Shown here: piece by piece, positions 57,219 through 64,000 of the stretch
How positions within the stretch are numbered: position 1 is the first letter of the stretch
Layout of the letters: each line of letters opens with the position of its first letter
Origin: an uncultured Clostridia bacterium
Lineage (GTDB): Bacteria > Acidobacteriota > Aminicenantia > JBFLYD01 > JBBIMS01
Length of the DNA: 64,000 bases
Reading direction: 5' to 3'
Assembly: GCA_964649495.1 (NCBI GenBank)
Contig: CAZYPR010000005.1
Span: forward strand, 7,128-71,127
Made by a program: the position numbers and the translations under genes
The notes under the pieces: model-generated
Seen by the model: only the letters and a program-made list of their open reading frames with translations
Told to the model about the DNA's origin: nothing
The model's database searches: none

Positions 57219-58082
57219 TCATTCCCTCATTCTTGCAAGAGCTTCAGCAGCTGTTGTAATTTCAATAATCTCTTTTGTAATTGATGTCTGTCTTATCTTA
57301 TTCATTATCAATGTTAATCTATCTATCATCTCTTCCGCATTTTTTGTTGCATTCTCCATTGCAATCATTCTTGAAGCATGCTCTGAAACAGCAGACTCCA
57401 GTATTATGTGATAGAGAGAAAATTTGATGTAAAGGGGGAGAAGGTGGGAAAAAATTTCTTCTGGTGGATATTCAAAAATAAACTCCGGGTATCCTTCTAT
57501 CTCCTCAACAGGTTCAAGGGGGAGGAGTTTTTCAATTACTATATCGTGTCTTACAGTTGATTTAAATTCATTATAAACAACATAGATTGCATCAGTAATT
57601 TTCTTTTCGTAAAGGTCAATGATAAATTCTGAAATTTCAAGGGATTTTTCATAGGAAAATTTGAAAAGTATATCAGTCCATGCCTTTCTTAATGGATATT
57701 TTCTTTTTGCAAAATAATCCTTTCCCTTTTTACCGATGAGAATAAGATTTATATTCTTATCTTTGAAGGAATTAATAAATTTTTCAGCTCTTTCTATTAT
57801 ATTTGAGTTGAAGGCACCGCACAATCCCTTATCAGATGTTATAACAATTAGATCAACATTATTCTCATCCCTTTTCTCAAGAAGGAAATGGGTCTGGCTT
57901 TCCACCCTTGATGCTATACTTTTTAATGTTTTTGAAAGAAGATGTGCGAACGGTCTTGCAGATAACATTTTTACCTGGAATTTTTTTAGTTTAGCTCCTG
58001 AAACTGTTTTCATTGCTTTTGTCATTTGCTGAGTGCTCTTAACACTTCTTATCTTCCTTCTCATATCAAGTAGGGTAGGCAT
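57219..58082 (-). CDS. atpG: F1 ATP synthase gamma subunit
   Basis: N-terminus RRKIRSVKSTQQMTKAMKTVSGAKLKK and C-terminal ITKEIIEI..AAEAL helix. Confidence 0.9.
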   Translation of the reverse strand: MPTLLDMRRKIRSVKSTQQMTKAMKTVSGAKLKKFQVKMLSARPFAHLLSKTLKSIASRVESQTHFLLEKRDENNVDLIVITSDKGLCGAFNSNIIERAEKFINSFKDKNINLILIGKKGKDYFAKRKYPLRKAWTDILFKFSYEKSLEISEFIIDLYEKKITDAIYVVYNEFKSTVRHDIVIEKLLPLEPVEEIEGYPEFIFEYPPEEIFSHLLPLYIKFSLYHIILESAVSEHASRMIAMENATKNAEEMIDRLTLIMNKIRQTSITKEIIEITTAAEALARMRE

Positions 58083-58083
58083 T

Positions 58084-59604
58084 TCAACCTCTTTTCTTTC
58101 TAATGAATTCCTCTGTAAATTCTTTAAGGAATGAATCCATCTTAGCCTTCAATGAATCGTCAATATACTTTTTCTCCTTTAGCTCTTTAAGTATTTCAGG
58201 AGCTTTCACCTTTACTTTTTCAAGGAGCTCCCTTTCATATTCCCTTACCCAGCTAACCTCAAGGAGATCAAGGAATCCATTTGTTCCTGAATAAATCGAT
58301 AGAATCTGCTCTTCAACTGGCATAGGTTGATATTGGTCCTGCTTTAAAAGTTCGACAAGTCTTTCTCCACGATGTAGCTGTGCCTGAGTTGCGGGATCAA
58401 GGTCTGAACCAAACTGGGCAAAGGTTAGAAGTTCTCTATACTGGGCAAGATCGAGTCTCAGAGTTCCCGCAACCTGTCTCATAGCTTTTATCTGAGCATT
58501 CCCTCCCACTCGTGAAACTGATATTCCAACATTTATGGCGGGTCTTACACCCGCATTGAAAAGATCAGGTTGAAGATAAATCTGTCCATCTGTTATTGAG
58601 ATAACATTTGTGGGAATATATCCTGAGACATCCCCCGCCTGGGTTTCAACTATTGGCAAAGCTGTAAGAGAACCTCCTCCATTCTCTTCATTTAATTTCG
58701 CAGCTCTTTCAAGGAGTCTTGAATGGAGATAGAAAATGTCTCCAGGGTAAGCTTCTCTTCCAGGTGGTCTTCTGAGAAGAAGGGAGATCTCTCTGTAACT
58801 TGCAGCATGCTTTGAGAGATCGTCATATATAACAAGAGCATGCATACCTCTATCCCTGAAAAACTCTCCCATGGCACATCCCGCATAAGGAGCAAGGTAC
58901 TGGAGGGTGGTAGGATCAGATGCGGATGCCACAACAACAGTGGAATATTCCATTGCTCCGTAATCTTCAAGTATTTTAATTACCTGAGCAATTGTAGACC
59001 TTTTCTGCCCTATTGCAACATAAATACAAAAAACATCAGAATCTTTCTGGTTTAGTATTGTGTCAATAGCTATAGCAGTCTTTCCAGTTTGTCTGTCGCC
59101 AATTATAAGCTCCCTCTGCCCCCTTCCAATCGGAATCATTGCATCTATAGCCTTTATACCTGTTTGAAGTGGCTCCTTCACAGGAATTCTATCCACAACA
59201 CTTGGAGCTATCCTTTCAATGGGCATATATGCTTCAGGAACTATCGGACCTTTACCGTCAAGGGGATTCCCGAGAGGGTCAATAACCCTTCCAATCAATG
59301 ATTTCCCAGCGGGAACCTCAAGGATTCTTCTGGTTCTCTTAACCATATCCCCTTCCTTTACACTTGTAGTATGTCCGAGAATAACCGCTCCAACATTATC
59401 TTCTTCAAGATTTAGAGCAATTCCCATTGTATGATTTCCAAAATCGATTAGCTCGTTATACATTACCTCTTCAAGCCCGTGGATTCGTGCGATTCCATCC
59501 CCTACAGAAATAACTATGCCCATCTCCTCTATATTTATGTCAGTTTTAAAACCTTCAATCTGCTCTTTAATAATTCTACTTATTTCGTCAGCTTTTATTT
59601 CCAT
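58084..59604 (-). CDS. atpA: F1 ATP synthase alpha subunit
   Basis: P-loop [15 protein letters not shown] plus conserved alpha-subunit blocks; 506 aa. Confidence 0.95.
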
Positions 59605-60152
59605 AACCCTTCTCCTTCAACTATTTTTATTCTTAGTCTTTCAAGATTACCTTTTATTGAACAATCGAAAATTTTATTCCCTTCCTTTATTACAATCCCT
59701 CCAAGAATTTCAGGCTCAACTCTAAAATCAGCTTTAATTTTTCCTTTTTTTATCCTTGAAAGAGTCTCGACAATTTCGGATTTTTCGCTTTCACTTAAGG
59801 GAATTGAAGATATTATCTCCATTTTATAAATATTATTCCTTTTGTTCCATATATCCTCGAAATTTTTGAGTATTAGATTTAAAAGGGAGAATCTTCCTTT
59901 TTCCACAAGGATTTTCAGAAATCTTTTTATCTTTTCAGAAATTTTCAACTCATCGGAAACCCTTTCAACAACATTCATCTTTAAAATTTTTGGAAAAATA
60001 GGGTTTTCAATGAAATCTTTAAATTCTTTATTATCGGAGAAAATACTTAGAACTGTAAGAAGCTCCTTCCTGATATTCTCCCAATCTTGAGGAGAGGAGC
60101 AAAAATGGGTAAGAGCAATGGCATATCTTCTTGCTACTGCTTCACCTCTCAT
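59595..60152 (-). CDS. atpH: F1 ATP synthase delta (OSCP) subunit
   Basis: [10 protein letters not shown]-terminus typical of delta. Position between the b and alpha genes. Confidence 0.8.
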
Positions 60153-60649
60153 AGAGCCTTTCCTATCTCATCTATTGCCTTACGAATAATTCTTCTCTGC
60201 TCAGATTCTCCAAAACCTCTTTTTATCCTCTCGGAAACTCTGCCGATAAGAATTTCTGCGCCATATCTCCTCAATTCTTCCAGCCCTTTTCTTCTCGCTT
60301 CTTCAATGGCTTCCTCTGCCTCCTGGATTATTTTTTTTGCCTCTAAGTTCGCCTCCTCAAGAATTCTCTTCTTCTCAATTATTGCTTCCCTTTCACCTGC
60401 GGAGACTATTTCTGCCACTTCTGAATCTATGCTTTTCAATCTATTTTCAATCTTCCTGAGCCTTCTCTCCACCTCATCCCTTTTCCTGAAGGAATCGTCA
60501 ATATCCTCACTTGTTGAAATTCTTTTATTTGCAATGAACTTCGAAAGGGGGGACTTAGCAAGAATATAAAGCAAGAAGAATAGAACTGCAAAATTAAAGA
60601 TCTTTCCCAAGTTACTTACTATATTAACTCCTTCGTGAGTTTCCGTCAT
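60149..60649 (-). CDS. atpF: Fo ATP synthase subunit b
   Basis: Single N-terminal TM then a long charged coiled coil. Operon position. Confidence 0.8.
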   Translation of the reverse strand: MTETHEGVNIVSNLGKIFNFAVLFFLLYILAKSPLSKFIANKRISTSEDIDDSFRKRDEVERRLRKIENRLKSIDSEVAEIVSAGEREAIIEKKRILEEANLEAKKIIQEAEEAIEEARRKGLEELRRYGAEILIGRVSERIKRGFGESEQRRIIRKAIDEIGKAL

Positions 60650-60650
60650 A

Positions 60651-61076
60651 TCAATTTCTCTGATTCAGAAGGTTTTTAATCAATTTTTCAGCAAGAAAAT
60701 CCACATCTCTTTCAATGATTTTTTTCCCCTCTTCAATTTCCTCTTCCAATTTTTTCAATGATTCATTTTTCAACTCTTCCGCTTTCAACCTTGCATTTTC
60801 TAAAATATTTTCTTTTTCAGCAAGGGCTTCCTTTCGAACCCTTTCCTTATGTTCCTCTACTCTGGCAAATGTGCTCTTTAGAATCTCATTTAGAACCCTC
60901 TCCTTTTCATTGTATTCGTTGAGGAATCGGGCAAAACTCTCATTGTTTTCCCTGATAACTTGCTCCCTTTTATGCAGAATATCATTGATAGGCTTAAAAT
61001 AAAGCCTCTGTAGAATTAGTAAAAGGATGGAGAGGATAAATACAACAAAAAGAGCTGAAAAATCCAGATTTACCAT
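60651..61076 (-). CDS. Fo ATP synthase subunit b' (second b-type subunit)
   Basis: Single TM plus a charged helix, directly upstream of atpF. It is the first gene of this operon segment; no atpB/atpE upstream of it. Confidence 0.7.
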   Translation of the reverse strand: MVNLDFSALFVVFILSILLLILQRLYFKPINDILHKREQVIRENNESFARFLNEYNEKERVLNEILKSTFARVEEHKERVRKEALAEKENILENARLKAEELKNESLKKLEEEIEEGKKIIERDVDFLAEKLIKNLLNQRN

Positions 61077-61226
61077 AAATCATCAAAATATTTATTTACC
61101 ATTGTCAGTGAAAAAAGTCAAGGTAATAGATTTTTCAAAGATAGAGCAATTAAATGCAATATTTTAAACAACTTTACTTATATGGGTATATTTTAAAAGA
61201 AAGATACGGCAAGTAAGTAGAAAAAA

Positions 61227-61472
61227 ATGTTCATTTACTTGACCTCTGAAGAGAAAAGAAAGGATGCCTTGATGGAGATGAGATACTCAGAGGAAGATGT
61301 AGAAGAAGCAGGAATATATTTTGATGAGGTGGTAAAAAAGATTAAGGAAGAAAATTTTAAAGTTAGCATCTCACCTGATACTAAAAAGGTTTGCAAGGAA
61401 TGTGATTTCAGGTTCTATTGCTCGCAAAATGGCATAATAAAATTTAAAACAAAGGAGCTTGAGGAGGTATAA
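61227..61472 (+). CDS. Small Cys-cluster protein resembling the C-terminal Fe-S/Cys module of Cas4/RecB-family PD-(D/E)xK nucleases
   Basis: Ends ...ENFKVSISPDTKKVCKECDFRFYCSQ. Compare the C-terminal 'f.p.p...C..C.y...C' of Cas4/AddB-type nucleases. The ORF is bounded by an upstream TAG, so it is stand-alone. The RBS of the next gene lies in its last codons. Confidence 0.3.
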   Translation: MFIYLTSEEKRKDALMEMRYSEEDVEEAGIYFDEVVKKIKEENFKVSISPDTKKVCKECDFRFYCSQNGIIKFKTKELEEV

Positions 61473-61474
61473 AG

Positions 61475-61666
61475 ATGCCAAAGATAAATATAAATAAGAC
61501 TGAACTTGTCTGGCTTGGGAAATACGATGAAGAGGGGAAACTAAATCCAGTTGAAAAGCCAGGTCCTTATCCATTTCAGATTGTGGAGGTAATAAATAAG
61601 CCGAGGACAGGGAAAGAAGAATCGCAACCAACACTTTTTGAAATATGGCAAGGCAAAGATGTATAA
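61475..61666 (+). CDS. 63-aa ORF matching the conserved N-terminal segment of Type III Mod-like adenine methyltransferases (detached peptide)
   Basis: TELVWLGKYDEEGKLNP versus the Mod N-terminal signature LELTWIGKENRPKLEP. GGAGG RBS. It terminates in a TAA-TAA-TAA triple stop. Confidence 0.35.
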   Translation: MPKININKTELVWLGKYDEEGKLNPVEKPGPYPFQIVEVINKPRTGKEESQPTLFEIWQGKDV

Positions 61667-61686
61667 TAATAAAGGATGAGGCCAAT

Positions 61687-62181
61687 ATGCCAAAAAATAA
61701 TTCCTCAAAAATAGTGCAGATTTTTTCGGCACAAGATGTGAAGCATGGCTTATCTCTTTTCACAAATAGAGAAATTCAAGCTGTGGAAGGCTTGATTATA
61801 GAACGGGATGGAAAATTTCATATCAAATGCCAGATCAAAGATAGATACAAAGTCGCAAAACCTGAAGAAATCGTGAGGCAACTTGGGGTTTACAGGTTAT
61901 TAAATGAATATGGCTATCCGAAGGGAAGAATAGATGTTGAAAGAGTAATTTATTTTGGCTCAAGGGATTCTGGTTTAGCAGATGTGGTTGTCCTTCAAGA
62001 AGACCGTCAGCATCCATACATAATCTTTGAAGTAAAAAGACCTCAAAGAACTGCAGGGTTAGAACAATTAAAGAGTTATTGTAATGCTGAAGGATCTCCG
62101 ATTGGTGTTTGGTCTAATGGAAATGAAATGATAAGGCTTCACCGGGAAGAACCTATAATAAGTAAAAATTATGTAAAATAG
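61687..62181 (+). CDS. Stand-alone HsdR_N / Mrr-cat type PD-(D/E)xK nuclease-domain protein (165 aa); candidate restriction endonuclease
   Basis: GRIDVERVIYFG...GLADVVVLQEDRQHPYIIFEVKRPQ...GLEQLKSYCNAEGSPIGVWSNGNEMIRL matches the HsdR_N pattern (rpDyvly...p.lviEaK...QL.sY...g...gvltNG.e...y). RBS AGGATGAGG. ATG at 61687 (the six-frame ORF begins upstream at 61645). Confidence 0.6.
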   Translation: MPKNNSSKIVQIFSAQDVKHGLSLFTNREIQAVEGLIIERDGKFHIKCQIKDRYKVAKPEEIVRQLGVYRLLNEYGYPKGRIDVERVIYFGSRDSGLADVVVLQEDRQHPYIIFEVKRPQRTAGLEQLKSYCNAEGSPIGVWSNGNEMIRLHREEPIISKNYVK

Positions 62182-62191
62182 GAGTGTAAAA

Positions 62192-63217
62192 ATGGAGAAT
62201 TTATTAGACAATTTAAAATCATTACTCCAAAAAGACGAGCGCCTTGTCAGCGAAGGTGAGCTTTTGAAGAATAAGATAACCGAGCTTGCTTTGAGGTTAG
62301 ACAAAGATTTAATAAAACTTCTTTTGTCTGATGAAAAGATGAAAGAGGTGTTTTTTGTTGATGTGGATGGAGTTTTAATTTTTGACAAGGATAAATTTAT
62401 AAAGTTTGTTTCCAATAAACAGTTTTTGCCCGATTCTTATACTGCTTTTAAAAATAAAATAGGATTGATTGATGAAAATGAAGAATTTATTAGCGAAAAA
62501 AAAGAAGTAGTGCTTTCCTGGCCTTATAAGAATCTTAAATATCCAGAAGATTTCATTAATAAGATAATCTGTGGTGATTCCTTAGAGTTGATCAAGTCAA
62601 TTCCGGATAATTCTATAGATGTAGTTATTACCGACCCTCCATACGGATTAAATAAAGATGGTGTCAGAGGCGATGCTGATTTAAGTCTTTTTTATAATAT
62701 TCTGCCAGAGTGCGATAGAGTGTTAAAAGACAACAGTTTCTTTATTACATTTTTTAGCACAAAGTTTTTGCCACAATTATTTATACATAACCCATTTAAT
62801 TATTTTTGGCAAATTGTTTTATATTGTCCAGAGGGAAGAGTTAAATCACCAATAGGATACACGAAGTTCATGTCCTGTTTCATTTTCAAAAAAGGAAATC
62901 CTAAGATTATTTACTGGAATAAAGATATATTTGTCGATACACCTGGAAAAATGGTTGAGCCCGATGAAGGGTTCATAGACCATCCTACACCTAAACCAAA
63001 GCACTTTATAAAAGAAATTCTAAAAATGTTCACAAAAGAAAACGATTTAATTTTAGACCCTTTTATTGGAAGCGGTAGCACTGCCGTAGCATGCATTCAA
63101 CTTAATAGAAGATTTATTGGGTTTGAAATTGAGGAAAGATATTACAACCTTGCTGTTGGTAGAGTCAATAAATTTTTATCAAGATTTAACTCAAACTCCA
63201 TTAAAGAGGGAGAATGA
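62192..63217 (+). CDS. Beta-class DNA methyltransferase (N6-adenine or N4-cytosine; Mod-like N-terminal region)
   Basis: Motif IV DPPY (VVITDPPYGLNKDG) precedes motif I FxGxG (LDPFIGSGSTAVAC). The N-terminus carries GDSLELIK, as in the Mod/ParB-like MTase family. RBS aataggagtgtaaaaATG. Confidence 0.8.
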   Translation: MENLLDNLKSLLQKDERLVSEGELLKNKITELALRLDKDLIKLLLSDEKMKEVFFVDVDGVLIFDKDKFIKFVSNKQFLPDSYTAFKNKIGLIDENEEFISEKKEVVLSWPYKNLKYPEDFINKIICGDSLELIKSIPDNSIDVVITDPPYGLNKDGVRGDADLSLFYNILPECDRVLKDNSFFITFFSTKFLPQLFIHNPFNYFWQIVLYCPEGRVKSPIGYTKFMSCFIFKKGNPKIIYWNKDIFVDTPGKMVEPDEGFIDHPTPKPKHFIKEILKMFTKENDLILDPFIGSGSTAVACIQLNRRFIGFEIEERYYNLAVGRVNKFLSRFNSNSIKEGE

Positions 63218-63221
63218 ACCT

Positions 63222-63536
63222 ATGAATATCCCAGCTAAAATATTTATTAGGAACGGAAGACTAATAATAGAACTCCCATTAACTAATCCCACAGGAAAGA
63301 TTCGGGTAAAACGAAGAAGTGAAACTTCAAATTATGGATTGCCAATAGCCACAAGAACGGAAAAATTTACAGAAAATGATTATGTAGAATGGCAAATTTC
63401 CTATGCTACACAAAATCCACCAGACGAATCAAAAGTTGATGATGTTGTTATTAATGATAATCAAATTGGTTTTGAATTGACAAAATTATTAGCCGAAGGT
63501 ATGAAACTACAGATATTATCTGAGGATATTTATTAA
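63222..63536 (+). CDS. Hypothetical 104-aa protein translationally coupled to the methyltransferase (ATG 4 nt after its stop)
   Basis: ATG at 63222 preceded by aagagggag inside the MTase 3' end. No motif recognised. The six-frame ORF extends upstream to 63117 inside the MTase. Confidence 0.4.
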   Translation: MNIPAKIFIRNGRLIIELPLTNPTGKIRVKRRSETSNYGLPIATRTEKFTENDYVEWQISYATQNPPDESKVDDVVINDNQIGFELTKLLAEGMKLQILSEDIY

Positions 63537-63611
63537 TTAGAGAAGTTTATTGATAATGTTCAACCTACTGAAACTCTTGAAGAGAACGAAAAAATTTTTA
63601 GAGAAAATAAT

Positions 63612-63965
63612 TTGCAAGAGATAAAAGGTGGCTTCAAAAAATTTATAGAAAAGGTGCCTATATTTATTAAGAAAAACGAAAAAGAAGGTTATTTTATAGA
63701 AATAATTTTAAGGCATAAGCAACGCGCCGTAGGATTGCAAGCTATGGTTTATCTTTGTGTCTATGTAGAGAAATTAATGGATAGAAATGGAAATTCTTTA
63801 ATAGGCAGAGTAGCCAATATCCGAGAATTTGGTCAATTAGAAATTACCTCGGAGAATAGAACAATCATCTTAGATACTGTTAAAGCTTTTGCTATTGCAT
63901 CATGGCAACATAAAAACGATATTTCAAATATTTTGAACCAGATAAAAAGAAAATGCGAACTATAA
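63612..63965 (+). CDS. Hypothetical 117-aa protein, last complete ORF before the window edge
   Basis: Open frame on the same strand as the methyltransferase module. No recognisable motif. Confidence 0.35.
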   Translation: MQEIKGGFKKFIEKVPIFIKKNEKEGYFIEIILRHKQRAVGLQAMVYLCVYVEKLMDRNGNSLIGRVANIREFGQLEITSENRTIILDTVKAFAIASWQHKNDISNILNQIKRKCEL

Positions 63966-64000
63966 ATATTTATAAATCAAATCAAGCAAATAAACATTTC

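What the first reader, a model, noticed from the sequence alone, without database searches (positions are those of the whole stretch)
61227..64000. Compact, tightly coupled RM-like operon next to the ATP synthase genes, running off the window edge
Six same-strand genes are packed with overlapping RBS and stop signals. (i) An 81-aa protein ends in a Cas4/RecB-type three-Cys cluster. (ii) A 63-aa peptide matches the conserved N-terminus of Type III Mod methyltransferases (ELVWLGKYDEEGKLNP versus LELTWIGKENRPKLEP) and ends in a TAATAATAA triple stop. (iii) A 165-aa stand-alone HsdR_N/Mrr-cat PD-(D/E)xK nuclease domain follows. (iv) A 341-aa beta-class methyltransferase (DPPY then FxGxG) follows that. 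(v) A 104-aa protein starts 4 nt after the methyltransferase stop. (vi) A 117-aa protein is the last complete ORF. The simplest reading is a Type II-like RM with an unusually small HsdR_N-fold endonuclease. However, there is no helicase or Res partner. The Mod N-terminal motif is detached as its own minigene. The Cas4-like Cys module is detached as a minigene as well. Two unknown co-transcribed small proteins follow. Together these do not fit a standard Type I, II, III or IIG layout. The module continues beyond position 64000.
Basis: partly seen in the sequence, partly recalled or inferred. Interest (0 to 1): 0.7.

Follow-up and report, generated by a model that had tools for sequence, protein, structure and literature searches.

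The report
Decayed PabI-type restriction-modification gene cluster
This is not a new multi-part defence system. It is a known kind of restriction-modification cassette (PabI family, whose restriction enzyme is a DNA glycosylase) with its restriction gene knocked out by a stop codon, sitting behind leftover fragments of three older restriction systems.

Summary
All six ORFs exist as described, but comparative data change what they are.

- **ORF5 and ORF6** (104 and 117 aa) are one gene in one reading frame, split by a single TAA at 63534-63536. Read through, the 247-aa product aligns over its full length with the restriction DNA glycosylase R.PabI (PDB 2DVY, E 3.5e-31).
- **ORF4** (341 aa) is a chimera. 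A normal ~240-aa beta-class methyltransferase core (residues ~113-341) is fused in frame to the first ~112 codons of a Type III mod gene.
- **A second methyltransferase** (gamma-class, 467 aa) starts at 63953 and runs off the window.
- **The cassette** beta-MTase / R.PabI / gamma-MTase recurs in about 30 metagenome loci. R is disrupted in 7 of 31.
- **ORF3** is the first 158 codons of an ~810-aa nuclease-methyltransferase fusion gene. That gene is intact in 24 of 34 related genome loci.
- **ORF1 and ORF2** are a relic of the junction between a Cas4-like nuclease gene (3' end, frameshifted) and a Type III-like mod gene (5' end).

A related genome has the same ATP synthase operon but none of these genes.

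Verdict: an accessory restriction-modification island in decay, probably now acting only as orphan methyltransferases. The two-methyltransferase PabI cassette is a modest new variant.

The parts
61157..61472 (+). Relic of the 3' end of a Cas4-like PD-(D/E)xK nuclease gene. It includes ORF1 (61227-61472, 81 aa). There is a frameshift or stop between 61213 and 61227.
   Evidence: The peptide QYFKQLYLYGYILKERYGK, read in a different frame at 61157-61213, continues the homology upstream of ORF1. ORF1 is 49% identical over 69 aa to the C-terminus of a 510-aa KilA-N+PDDEXK_1 protein in L043 (E 2e-19). In every long hit of the representative search the match lies at the extreme C-terminus. ORF1 has no Shine-Dalgarno sequence.
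61475..61666 (+). ORF2: 5' stub (about 60 codons) of a Type III-like mod gene, ending in TAATAATAA.
   Evidence: PADLOC MTase_III positions 17-67 of 616, E 2.2e-7. Homologs continue '...GDTFEEGWKNKLIWGDN...IYIDPPF'. In L046 the full-type mod gene follows the nuclease gene after a 2-nt spacer, as in the window. The L033 copy has two in-frame stops.
61687..62181 (+). ORF3: 5' stub (158 homologous codons plus 6 novel codons) of an ~810-aa HSDR_N_2 nuclease + gamma-methyltransferase fusion gene.
   Evidence: DNA homology to relatives runs only from 61685/61687 to 62153/62155. 24 of 34 genome loci carry 784-859-aa ORFs that continue 'NIFVEIPRIP...'. The intact gene has HSDR_N_2+N6_Mtase+Eco57I domains and is followed by a Methylase_S gene. 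PADLOC MTase_I PDLC03034 positions 5-156 of 672, E 4e-35.
62192..62527 (+). N-terminal ~112 codons of ORF4: the captured 5' end of a PF12564-type Type III mod gene, with its ribosome-binding site at 62156-62191.
   Evidence: Pfam TypeIII_RM_meth at residues 37-92, E 3.8e-25. PADLOC MTase_III PDLC03635 positions 4-116 of 708. This segment is absent from the 120 closest homologs listed and from the listed members of the protein's 90% identity cluster, which are 231-242 aa.
62528..63217 (+). Core of ORF4: beta-class (DPPY then FIGSGS) Type II DNA methyltransferase M1 of the PabI-type cassette.
   Evidence: 70-87% identity to 216-260-aa methyltransferases that align only to residues ~113-341. These lie directly upstream of R.PabI homologs.
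63222..63965 (+). R.PabI-family restriction DNA glycosylase gene interrupted by one nonsense codon. It comprises ORF5 (63222-63536) and ORF6 (63612-63965).
   Evidence: The read-through 247-aa product aligns at residues 3-241 with R.PabI residues 7-222 (PDB 2dvy, E 3.5e-31). PADLOC REase_II PDLC03538 positions 8-222 of 226. It is 75% identical to an intact 246-aa ortholog in L038.
63534..63536 (+). In-frame TAA nonsense codon.
   Evidence: It aligns to Glu in R.PabI 'DIYELLKF' and to Glu in L038 'VEELEKF', so it is one substitution from GAA. ORF6's TTG start has no ribosome-binding site.
63953..64000 (+). Start of M2, a 467-aa gamma-class methyltransferase with a C-terminal TRD. It overlaps the end of R by 13 nt and runs off the window to about window-equivalent position 65356.
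   Evidence: L001 11762-13165: N6_Mtase+Eco57I. PADLOC MTase_II PDLC03311 positions 3-453 of 464, E 2.7e-140. 75% identical to the M2 gene of L038.
61130..61131 (.). Left boundary of the accessory island.
   Evidence: 81% DNA synteny with a related genome (L079) covers window 58000-61130 and stops there. L079 has an IS-like remnant at this position instead.

Best explanation
The segment from about 61130 to beyond 64000 is an accessory restriction-modification (RM) island, inserted next to the ATP synthase operon and now in decay.

**The one near-complete unit.** It is a three-gene PabI-family Type II cassette: beta-class methyltransferase M1, the R.PabI-type restriction DNA glycosylase R, and gamma-class methyltransferase M2.
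- R has been inactivated by a GAA-to-TAA nonsense mutation at codon 105. The catalytic Tyr68 equivalent lies on one fragment and the Lys154-loop equivalent on the other.
- M1 lost its own first ~15 codons. It is now expressed as an in-frame fusion to the first ~112 codons, with the ribosome-binding site, of a former Type III mod gene.

**Upstream relics.** Three non-functional leftovers of earlier systems lie upstream:
- the junction of a Cas4-like nuclease gene and a Type III-like mod gene (ORF1 and ORF2);
- the 5' fifth of a nuclease-methyltransferase fusion gene that normally pairs with a specificity subunit (ORF3).

**Inferred present function.** The locus probably provides only methylation by M1 and M2, as orphan methyltransferases. 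By analogy with R.PabI and M.PabI they may target a GTAC-like site. There is no restriction activity.

**What is shown and what is inferred.**
- Shown: the homologies, breakpoints, stop codon, cassette recurrence and absence from a relative.
- Inferred: activity of M1 and M2, the target sequence, and the order of events.
For: **R is one gene with a stop.**
- ORF5 and ORF6 share a frame with a single TAA between them.
- The read-through product aligns full length with R.PabI.
- An intact ortholog, 75% identical, has Glu at the stop position.
- YVEWQISY (Glu63/Tyr68), NPTG (Pro27/Thr28) and HKQRAVG (Lys154) are conserved in the alignment (residue roles from PMC7229829).

**The cassette is a recurrent unit.**
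- The M1-R-M2 order is seen in L038-L040.
- It recurs in about 30 of 32 metagenome loci. R is disrupted in 7 of 31, while M2 is never clearly disrupted.
- The literature reports frequent disruption of R.PabI homologs with retention of M, including an R annotated as two proteins (PMC4615327; PMC10273834).

**M1 is a chimera.**

**ORF3 is a stub.**
- Truncated copies elsewhere break at many different positions (L005 179 aa, L027 272, L010 317, L006 382, L002 167).

**ORF1 and ORF2 are a relic.** See, and the decayed copy in L033.

**The island is accessory.**
Against: - The stop codon rests on one population (about 6x assembly coverage, from the L001 contig name; identical second assembly). A sequencing error cannot be excluded.
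- ORF2 and ORF3 are still open, keep good ribosome-binding sites, and ORF3 keeps its D...EVK motif.
- dN/dS of ORF3 against intact homologs (0.15-0.20) is not clearly above the values among intact genes (0.09-0.17). Relaxed selection on the stubs is therefore not demonstrated.
- Two other loci also have an ORF3-type stub directly followed by an unrelated methyltransferase (L002, L033).
- No methylation or expression data exist.
Confidence: 0.85

Rival explanations
1. The TAA at 63534 is an assembly or sequencing error, or a minority allele. In that case the organism carries a fully active PabI-type M1-R-M2 restriction glycosylase system, and the upstream ORFs are still relics.
For: All known functional residues of R are conserved and there is no second lesion. 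Coverage of the only assembly is low (about 6x, contig name). The two assemblies are identical and so are not independent. 24 of 31 related cassettes have an intact R.
Against: Two assemblies (NCBI and ENA) give the same base. R disruption is common in this family (7 of 31 here; PMC4615327, PMC10273834).
Confidence: 0.08
2. One reading: a novel multi-component RM system. The 164-aa HsdR_N-fold protein would be a minimal endonuclease partnered with the 341-aa methyltransferase, and the 81-, 63-, 104- and 117-aa proteins would be accessory subunits.
For: The ORFs are on the same strand and tightly spaced, and four of the six have ribosome-binding sites. ORF3 keeps the PD-ExK motif. ORF3-type stubs precede unrelated methyltransferases in L002 and L033 as well.
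Against: - Every small ORF is a fragment of a larger gene.
- DNA homology stops at breakpoints, and a stop codon follows within about 6 codons in ORF3 and within about 3 in ORF2.
- The L033 copy is visibly decayed.
- Stub lengths vary widely among loci.
- ORF1 is frameshifted and has no ribosome-binding site.
- Close homologs of the methyltransferase core pair with R.PabI genes, not with HSDR_N_2 genes.
Confidence: 0.04
3. Programmed gene capture: this locus is a hot spot where promoter-less RM cassettes repeatedly insert into the 5' part of resident RM genes and take over their promoter and ribosome-binding site. The stack of 5' stubs would then be a mechanistic signature rather than random decay.
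For: - Three successive 5' stubs share one orientation.
- Two of the three right-hand junctions fall within about 40 nt upstream of a start codon (61685 and 62156).
- Homology among copies of the ~810-aa gene begins at the ATG itself.
- Similar stubs followed by unrelated genes occur in L002, L033, L043, L045 and L060.
- The M1 fusion is in frame.
Against: The sample of junctions is small. No recombinase, repeats or attachment sites were identified. Promoter-like matches are not above chance (22 found against 26 expected). The pattern is compatible with ordinary deletions filtered by selection for methyltransferase expression.
Confidence: 0.2

Closest known systems
PabI-family Type II RM systems (R.PabI/M.PabI of Pyrococcus abyssi; R.HpyAXII; R.CcoLI), whose restriction enzymes are HALFPIPE-fold DNA glycosylases
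   Same: - R aligns full length with R.PabI and with the 240-aa chain 7cfa_A, deposited as 'R.Pab1 family restriction endonuclease' (E 3.5e-31 and 2.3e-29).
- The Tyr68, Lys154 and wedge-loop positions are conserved.
- A gamma-type methyltransferase with a C-terminal TRD is adjacent, as described for M.PabI homologs (PMC4615327).
- R is disrupted while the methyltransferases are kept, as is frequent in Helicobacter (PMC4615327, PMC10273834).
   Different: - The gene order is M1(beta)-R-M2(gamma), all co-directional. Published orders are M/R tail-to-tail (archaea) or M upstream of R (bacteria).
- The extra beta-class methyltransferase is not described in the papers I could read.
- Here M1 additionally carries a captured Type III Mod N-terminus, and R has a nonsense codon.
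- Specificity (GTAC?) is untested.
Type III RM Mod subunits (EcoP15I-type; PADLOC MTase_III PDLC03633 and PDLC03635; Pfam PF12564)
   Same: ORF2 and the first ~112 residues of ORF4 match Mod N-termini.
   Different: Only the N-terminal 60 and 112 residues are present. There is no Mod catalytic or TRD region of Type III origin and no Res gene.
Nuclease-methyltransferase fusion plus separate specificity subunit (PADLOC MTase_I PDLC03034). From memory, the architecture resembles Type IIB BcgI and MADS MAD2.
   Same: ORF3 is 75-89% identical to the N-terminal HSDR_N_2 domain of these ~810-aa proteins.
   Different: The methyltransferase part (about 650 aa) and the Methylase_S gene are missing from the window. 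The resemblance to BcgI is recalled from memory and was not tested.
Cas4/AddB-type PD-(D/E)xK nucleases with a C-terminal Cys cluster (Pfam PDDEXK_1, Cas_Cas4)
   Same: ORF1 has the C-terminal CxxCx5C module. It matches the C-termini of proteins of 260-1250 aa; the two whose sequences were read carry UvrD-type helicase motifs, and the closest relative is a KilA-N-nuclease fusion.
   Different: Only the last ~90 residues remain, and they are frameshifted. The catalytic core is absent.
Type II systems with two methyltransferases, such as DpnII with DpnM and DpnA (from memory)
   Same: One restriction gene is accompanied by two methyltransferases of different classes.
   Different: The families are unrelated. 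Whether M1 and M2 share a target, or divide the work between single- and double-stranded DNA or between strands, is unknown.

Membership tests
PabI-family restriction glycosylase RM system | Restriction protein homologous over its full length to R.PabI (PF09522, HALFPIPE fold) | tested here: met
   query residues 3-241 against 2dvy residues 7-222, E 3.5e-31. PF09522 E 7.7e-18. PDLC03538 positions 8-222 of 226.
PabI-family restriction glycosylase RM system | Conserved functional residues (Tyr68 catalytic, Lys154 loop, Pro27-Thr28 wedge loop) | tested here: met
   The alignment shows YVEWQISY, HKQRAVG and NPTG conserved. Residue roles are from PMC7229829.
PabI-family restriction glycosylase RM system | Uninterrupted R reading frame | tested here: not met
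   In-frame TAA at 63534-63536. An intact ortholog has Glu at this position.
PabI-family restriction glycosylase RM system | Adjacent gamma-type adenine methyltransferase with C-terminal TRD (M.PabI homolog) | tested here: met
   M2 starts at 63953. N6_Mtase+Eco57I domains plus S-like TRD matches. Direct comparison with the M.PabI sequence was not possible.
PabI-family restriction glycosylase RM system | Sequence-specific adenine excision (GTAC) blocked by m6A | not testable with these tools
   Needs biochemistry or methylome data.
Type III RM (Mod + Res) | Full-length Mod with catalytic motifs and TRD | tested here: not met
   ORF2 stops after about 60 residues, before the 'WKNKLIWGDN...DPPF' region present in homologs. 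The ORF4 N-terminus matches only Mod positions 4-116 of 708.
Type III RM (Mod + Res) | Res helicase-nuclease gene adjacent | tested here: not met
   No ResIII or DEAD gene in the window end or in the 3.9 kb beyond it.
HSDR_N_2 nuclease + gamma-methyltransferase fusion with S subunit | N-terminal HSDR_N_2 PD-ExK domain | tested here: met
   PF13588 E 1.1e-19. The D...EVK motif is present.
HSDR_N_2 nuclease + gamma-methyltransferase fusion with S subunit | Fused N6_Mtase domain and downstream Methylase_S gene | tested here: not met
   Homology ends at 62155. Intact relatives are 784-859 aa and are followed by an S gene.
Cas4 / PDDEXK_1 nuclease | Complete PD-(D/E)xK core plus four-Cys cluster | tested here: not met
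   Only profile positions 194-246 of 247 are present. The upstream part is frameshifted and then absent.
Beta-class Type II N6/N4 DNA methyltransferase | Motif IV (DPPY) before motif I (FxGxG), with the full N6_N4_Mtase domain | tested here: met
   PF01555 E 4.8e-32. Conserved columns in alignment A2.

The most novel reading that the evidence does not exclude
Two linked readings remain possible.

1. The beta-MTase / R.PabI / gamma-MTase cassette is an undescribed and widespread lineage of restriction-glycosylase systems in environmental, possibly thermophilic, microbes. It would need two methyltransferases for protection, for example acting on different strands, different bases, or single- versus double-stranded DNA.
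2. The stack of same-orientation 5' gene stubs records a cassette-exchange process. Incoming RM units would insert into the 5' ends of resident RM genes and take over their expression signals.
Probability: 0.25. Interest if true: 0.5.

Novelty: new variant of a known kind. Interest (0 to 1): 0.28.

Why it matters
For the window itself the result is mostly a correction. What looked like an exotic six-gene defence operon is an RM graveyard plus a dying PabI-type cassette.

The modest value lies in three points:
- It shows that PabI-family restriction glycosylases commonly travel as a three-gene unit with two methyltransferases of different classes. The reviews I read describe the family as rare outside Campylobacterales (PMC10273834).
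- It gives a clean example of restriction-first decay with methyltransferase retention.
- It shows an in-frame capture of a Type III mod 5' end by a Type II methyltransferase.

It is also a caution for annotation. Short "HsdR N-terminal domain proteins" and small Cas4-like ORFs in metagenomes are often stubs or gene-caller artefacts.

Tried and rejected
- **tblastn of ORF1 and ORF2 against plasmids:** no match.
- **Viral-contig scans with ORF1 and ORF2:** no relatives.
- **First homolog search with ORF3**: it returned only proteins of 286 aa or less, which at first suggested a family of small stand-alone proteins. Reading the genome loci showed the normal gene is ~810 aa and the short hits are contig-edge partials or truncated copies.
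- **Representative search with ORF1**: many 57-81-aa hits start at the same Met. Inspection of L046 showed at least the closest one (P0248) is a gene-caller start inside an open frame that runs off the contig. I did not check the others.
- **Promoter and terminator scan:** not above chance.
- **dN/dS on the ORF3 stub:** no power to separate relaxed from purifying selection.
- **M.PabI primary paper (PMC1538712):** not held, so the M2 to M.PabI relationship rests on the class description in PMC4615327.
- **Organism identity:** not established. The window's genome was not among the loci returned by the GTDB species-representative scan, and no source names were attached to its proteins.
- **TAA as a sense or recoded codon:** considered and rejected, because ORF1 and ORF2 in the window also terminate with TAA.


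Full report
**1. The observation**

| ORF | Coordinates | Length |
|---|---|---|
| ORF1 | 61227-61472 | 81 aa |
| ORF2 | 61475-61666 | 63 aa, ending TAATAATAA |
| ORF3 | 61687-62181 | 164 aa from the ATG |
| ORF4 | 62192-63217 | 341 aa |
| ORF5 | 63222-63536 | 104 aa |
| ORF6 | 63612-63965 | 117 aa, TTG start |

The ATP synthase operon lies on the minus strand just upstream.

- ORF1 matches the Cas4 / PDDEXK_1 C-terminus.
- ORF2 matches a Type III Mod N-terminus.
- ORF3 is an HSDR_N_2 domain.
- ORF4 is an N6_N4 methyltransferase.

**2. ORF5 and ORF6 are one gene**

Both ORFs are in the same frame, and exactly one stop codon (TAA, 63534-63536) separates them.

- The read-through 247-aa product aligns over residues 3-241 with residues 7-222 of the restriction DNA glycosylase R.PabI (PDB 2dvy, E 3.5e-31). 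It also matches the related chain 7cfa_A, deposited as 'R.Pab1 family restriction endonuclease'. Pfam RE_R_Pab1 and PADLOC REase_II PDLC03538 agree.
- The stop aligns to Glu in R.PabI 'DIYELLKF'. It also aligns to Glu in an intact ortholog that is 75% identical (L038, 'VEELEKF'). It is therefore one substitution away from GAA.
- The catalytic Tyr68 equivalent and the wedge loop lie in ORF5. The Lys154-loop equivalent lies in ORF6 (residue roles from PMC7229829).
- ORF6's TTG start has no ribosome-binding site.

As sequenced, the gene is inactive. There are no further lesions, so the inactivation is probably recent.

**3. The cassette**

An identical contig from ENA (L001/L003, 0 mismatches over 12.3 kb) extends 3.9 kb past the window.

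- A 467-aa gamma-class methyltransferase (N6_Mtase+Eco57I with a C-terminal TRD) starts at window position 63953 and overlaps the end of R by 13 nt. PADLOC MTase_II PDLC03311 matches it full length, E 2.7e-140.
- A SLFN_AlbA_2 gene follows it.

Close homologs of the ORF4 core sit immediately upstream of intact R.PabI homologs, which are followed by the same gamma methyltransferase (L038-L040). In a divergent version (L041/L042) the R gene is only 24% identical and the second methyltransferase is different.

A metagenome scan with the intact R gene gave 32 loci:
- The M1-R-M2 order is almost universal. M1 is upstream in 27 loci and M2 is downstream in 30.
- R is disrupted in 7 of 31.
- M2 is never clearly disrupted.

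The literature describes M.PabI homologs as gamma-type with a C-terminal TRD. It also reports frequent disruption of R with retention of M, including an R annotated as two proteins (PMC4615327; PMC10273834). The additional beta-class M1 and the M1-R-M2 order are not mentioned in the papers I could read.

**4. ORF4 is a chimera**

- The 120 closest homologs (70-87% identity) are 216-260 aa and align only to residues ~113-341.
- In its 90% identity cluster of 80 members, the window protein is the only 341-aa sequence among those listed. The other listed members are 231-242 aa.
- Residues 1-112 match the N-terminus of Type III Mod proteins (PF12564, E 3.8e-25; PADLOC PDLC03635 positions 4-116 of 708).

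The methyltransferase core therefore lost about 15 non-conserved N-terminal codons and is fused in frame to the 5' end of a mod gene. That mod fragment brings its own ribosome-binding site (62156-62191).

**5. ORF3 is a stub**

A genome scan found 34 loci.
- In 24 of them the homologous ORF is 784-859 aa. It has HSDR_N_2, N6_Mtase and Eco57I domains and is followed by a Methylase_S gene.
- DNA homology with the window runs only from 61685/61687 (the ATG) to 62153/62155. After that point, six unrelated codons and a stop follow.
- Truncated copies elsewhere break at many different positions: 167, 179, 272, 317 and 382 aa. This argues against a selected stand-alone domain.
- dN/dS is uninformative.

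**6. ORF1 and ORF2 are one relic**

- Homologs of ORF2 continue into the Type III Mod core, 'GDTFEEGWKNKLIWGDN...IYIDPPF'.
- ORF1 is 49% identical to the C-terminus of a 510-aa KilA-N+PDDEXK_1 protein (L043).
- In the representative search, all long hits match ORF1 at their extreme C-terminus.
- The homology continues upstream of ORF1 in another frame (61157-61213), so the relic is frameshifted.
- L046 shows the ancestral arrangement: the end of the nuclease gene, a 2-nt spacer, then the start of a full-type mod gene. This is exactly the junction preserved in the window.
- An Elusimicrobiales MAG (L033) carries the same ORF2-ORF3 composite at 84-92% DNA identity. There it has two in-frame stops in ORF2 and an 83-bp deletion in ORF3, and a different methyltransferase follows.

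**7. The island is accessory**

A related genome with over 90% identical AtpA (L079) is syntenic at 81% DNA identity up to window position 61130. At that point it carries an IS-like remnant instead of any of these genes.

**8. Interpretation**

The best explanation (confidence about 0.85) is an RM island in decay. It consists of three layers of relics plus a PabI-type M1-R-M2 cassette whose R gene is knocked out. That leaves two probable orphan methyltransferases.

- Shown: the homologies, breakpoints, stop codon, cassette recurrence and accessory status.
- Inferred: methyltransferase activity, the target sequence (GTAC-like, by analogy) and the order of events.

Rival explanations:
- The stop is a sequencing error (about 0.08).
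- As an overlay rather than an alternative, a promoter-capture or cassette-exchange process generates the stack of stubs (about 0.2).

**9. Novelty and score**

The finding as proposed, a non-standard multi-component RM system, is not supported.

What remains is a new arrangement (two methyltransferases flanking R) of a known and unusual family, and a neat example of RM decay and gene fusion.
- Interest: about 0.28.
- Novelty: new variant of a known kind.

Noticed in passing
L004-L020 (genome loci): The ~810-aa HSDR_N_2+N6_Mtase gene is 71-89% identical at the protein level across Bacteroidota, Caldisericota, Bacillota, Desulfobacterota, Aquificaceae, Dehalococcoidia, Ignavibacteria and Archaeoglobaceae. 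That implies very recent transfer between phyla and between domains. DNA homology between copies starts right at the ATG.
   Followed up: partly
L001 13349-14212 (about 1.35 kb beyond the window end): A 287-aa SLFN_AlbA_2 protein lies downstream of M2. Its C-terminal 100 aa match PADLOC candidate system PDC-S19 (E 1.7e-31). A related HATPase_c_4-type gene precedes the relic in L033.
   Followed up: no
L071 946-3598: Two different PabI-like cassettes lie tail-to-tail. One has an R 50% identical to L038 R. The other, on the reverse strand, has an L041-type methyltransferase (64%) and a divergent R-like gene (26%).
   Followed up: no
L041/L042: M1 is 82% identical to the window's core, but here it pairs with an R.PabI-like protein only 24% identical and a different second methyltransferase (PADLOC PDLC03275). 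M1 is thus much more conserved than its partners. The neighbourhood also holds an EcoRV-like RM system, HepT/MNT and ParE genes.
   Followed up: partly
L043 924-7536: A defence-island-like row of genes: a KilA-N+Cas4-like nuclease (its N-terminus matches PADLOC PDC-S22), a DUF4062-HATPase_c_4-Fic-like_C protein, a 79-aa ORF2-type stub, then a complete Type III mod and res pair.
   Followed up: partly
L002 3555-5065: In an element with integrase and ParB genes, a 167-aa stub of the same ~810-aa gene (86% identical) is followed after 5 nt by a Dam-like (D12) methyltransferase. This is another stub-then-methyltransferase junction.
   Followed up: partly
L079 6503-7528: At the position orthologous to the island, the related genome has about 1 kb with no called gene. 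By eye, one frame translates to a helix-turn-helix / IS481-like transposase N-terminus (my recollection of the family, not tested). This suggests the site next to atpF' is a recurrent insertion point.
   Followed up: no
window 61638-61667: The best sigma-70-like match in the region (TTGAAA-18-TATAAT, 11 of 12) overlaps the end of ORF2. Its -10 element is part of the 'TAATAATAA triple stop'. The overall number of promoter-like sites is not above chance.
   Followed up: no
window 61885-61890 (ORF3 'VRQLGVYRL'): At this position the homologs I read have Trp, or another bulky hydrophobic residue (Phe, Tyr, Ile). The window stub has Gly. This is a small hint of relaxed constraint.
   Followed up: no
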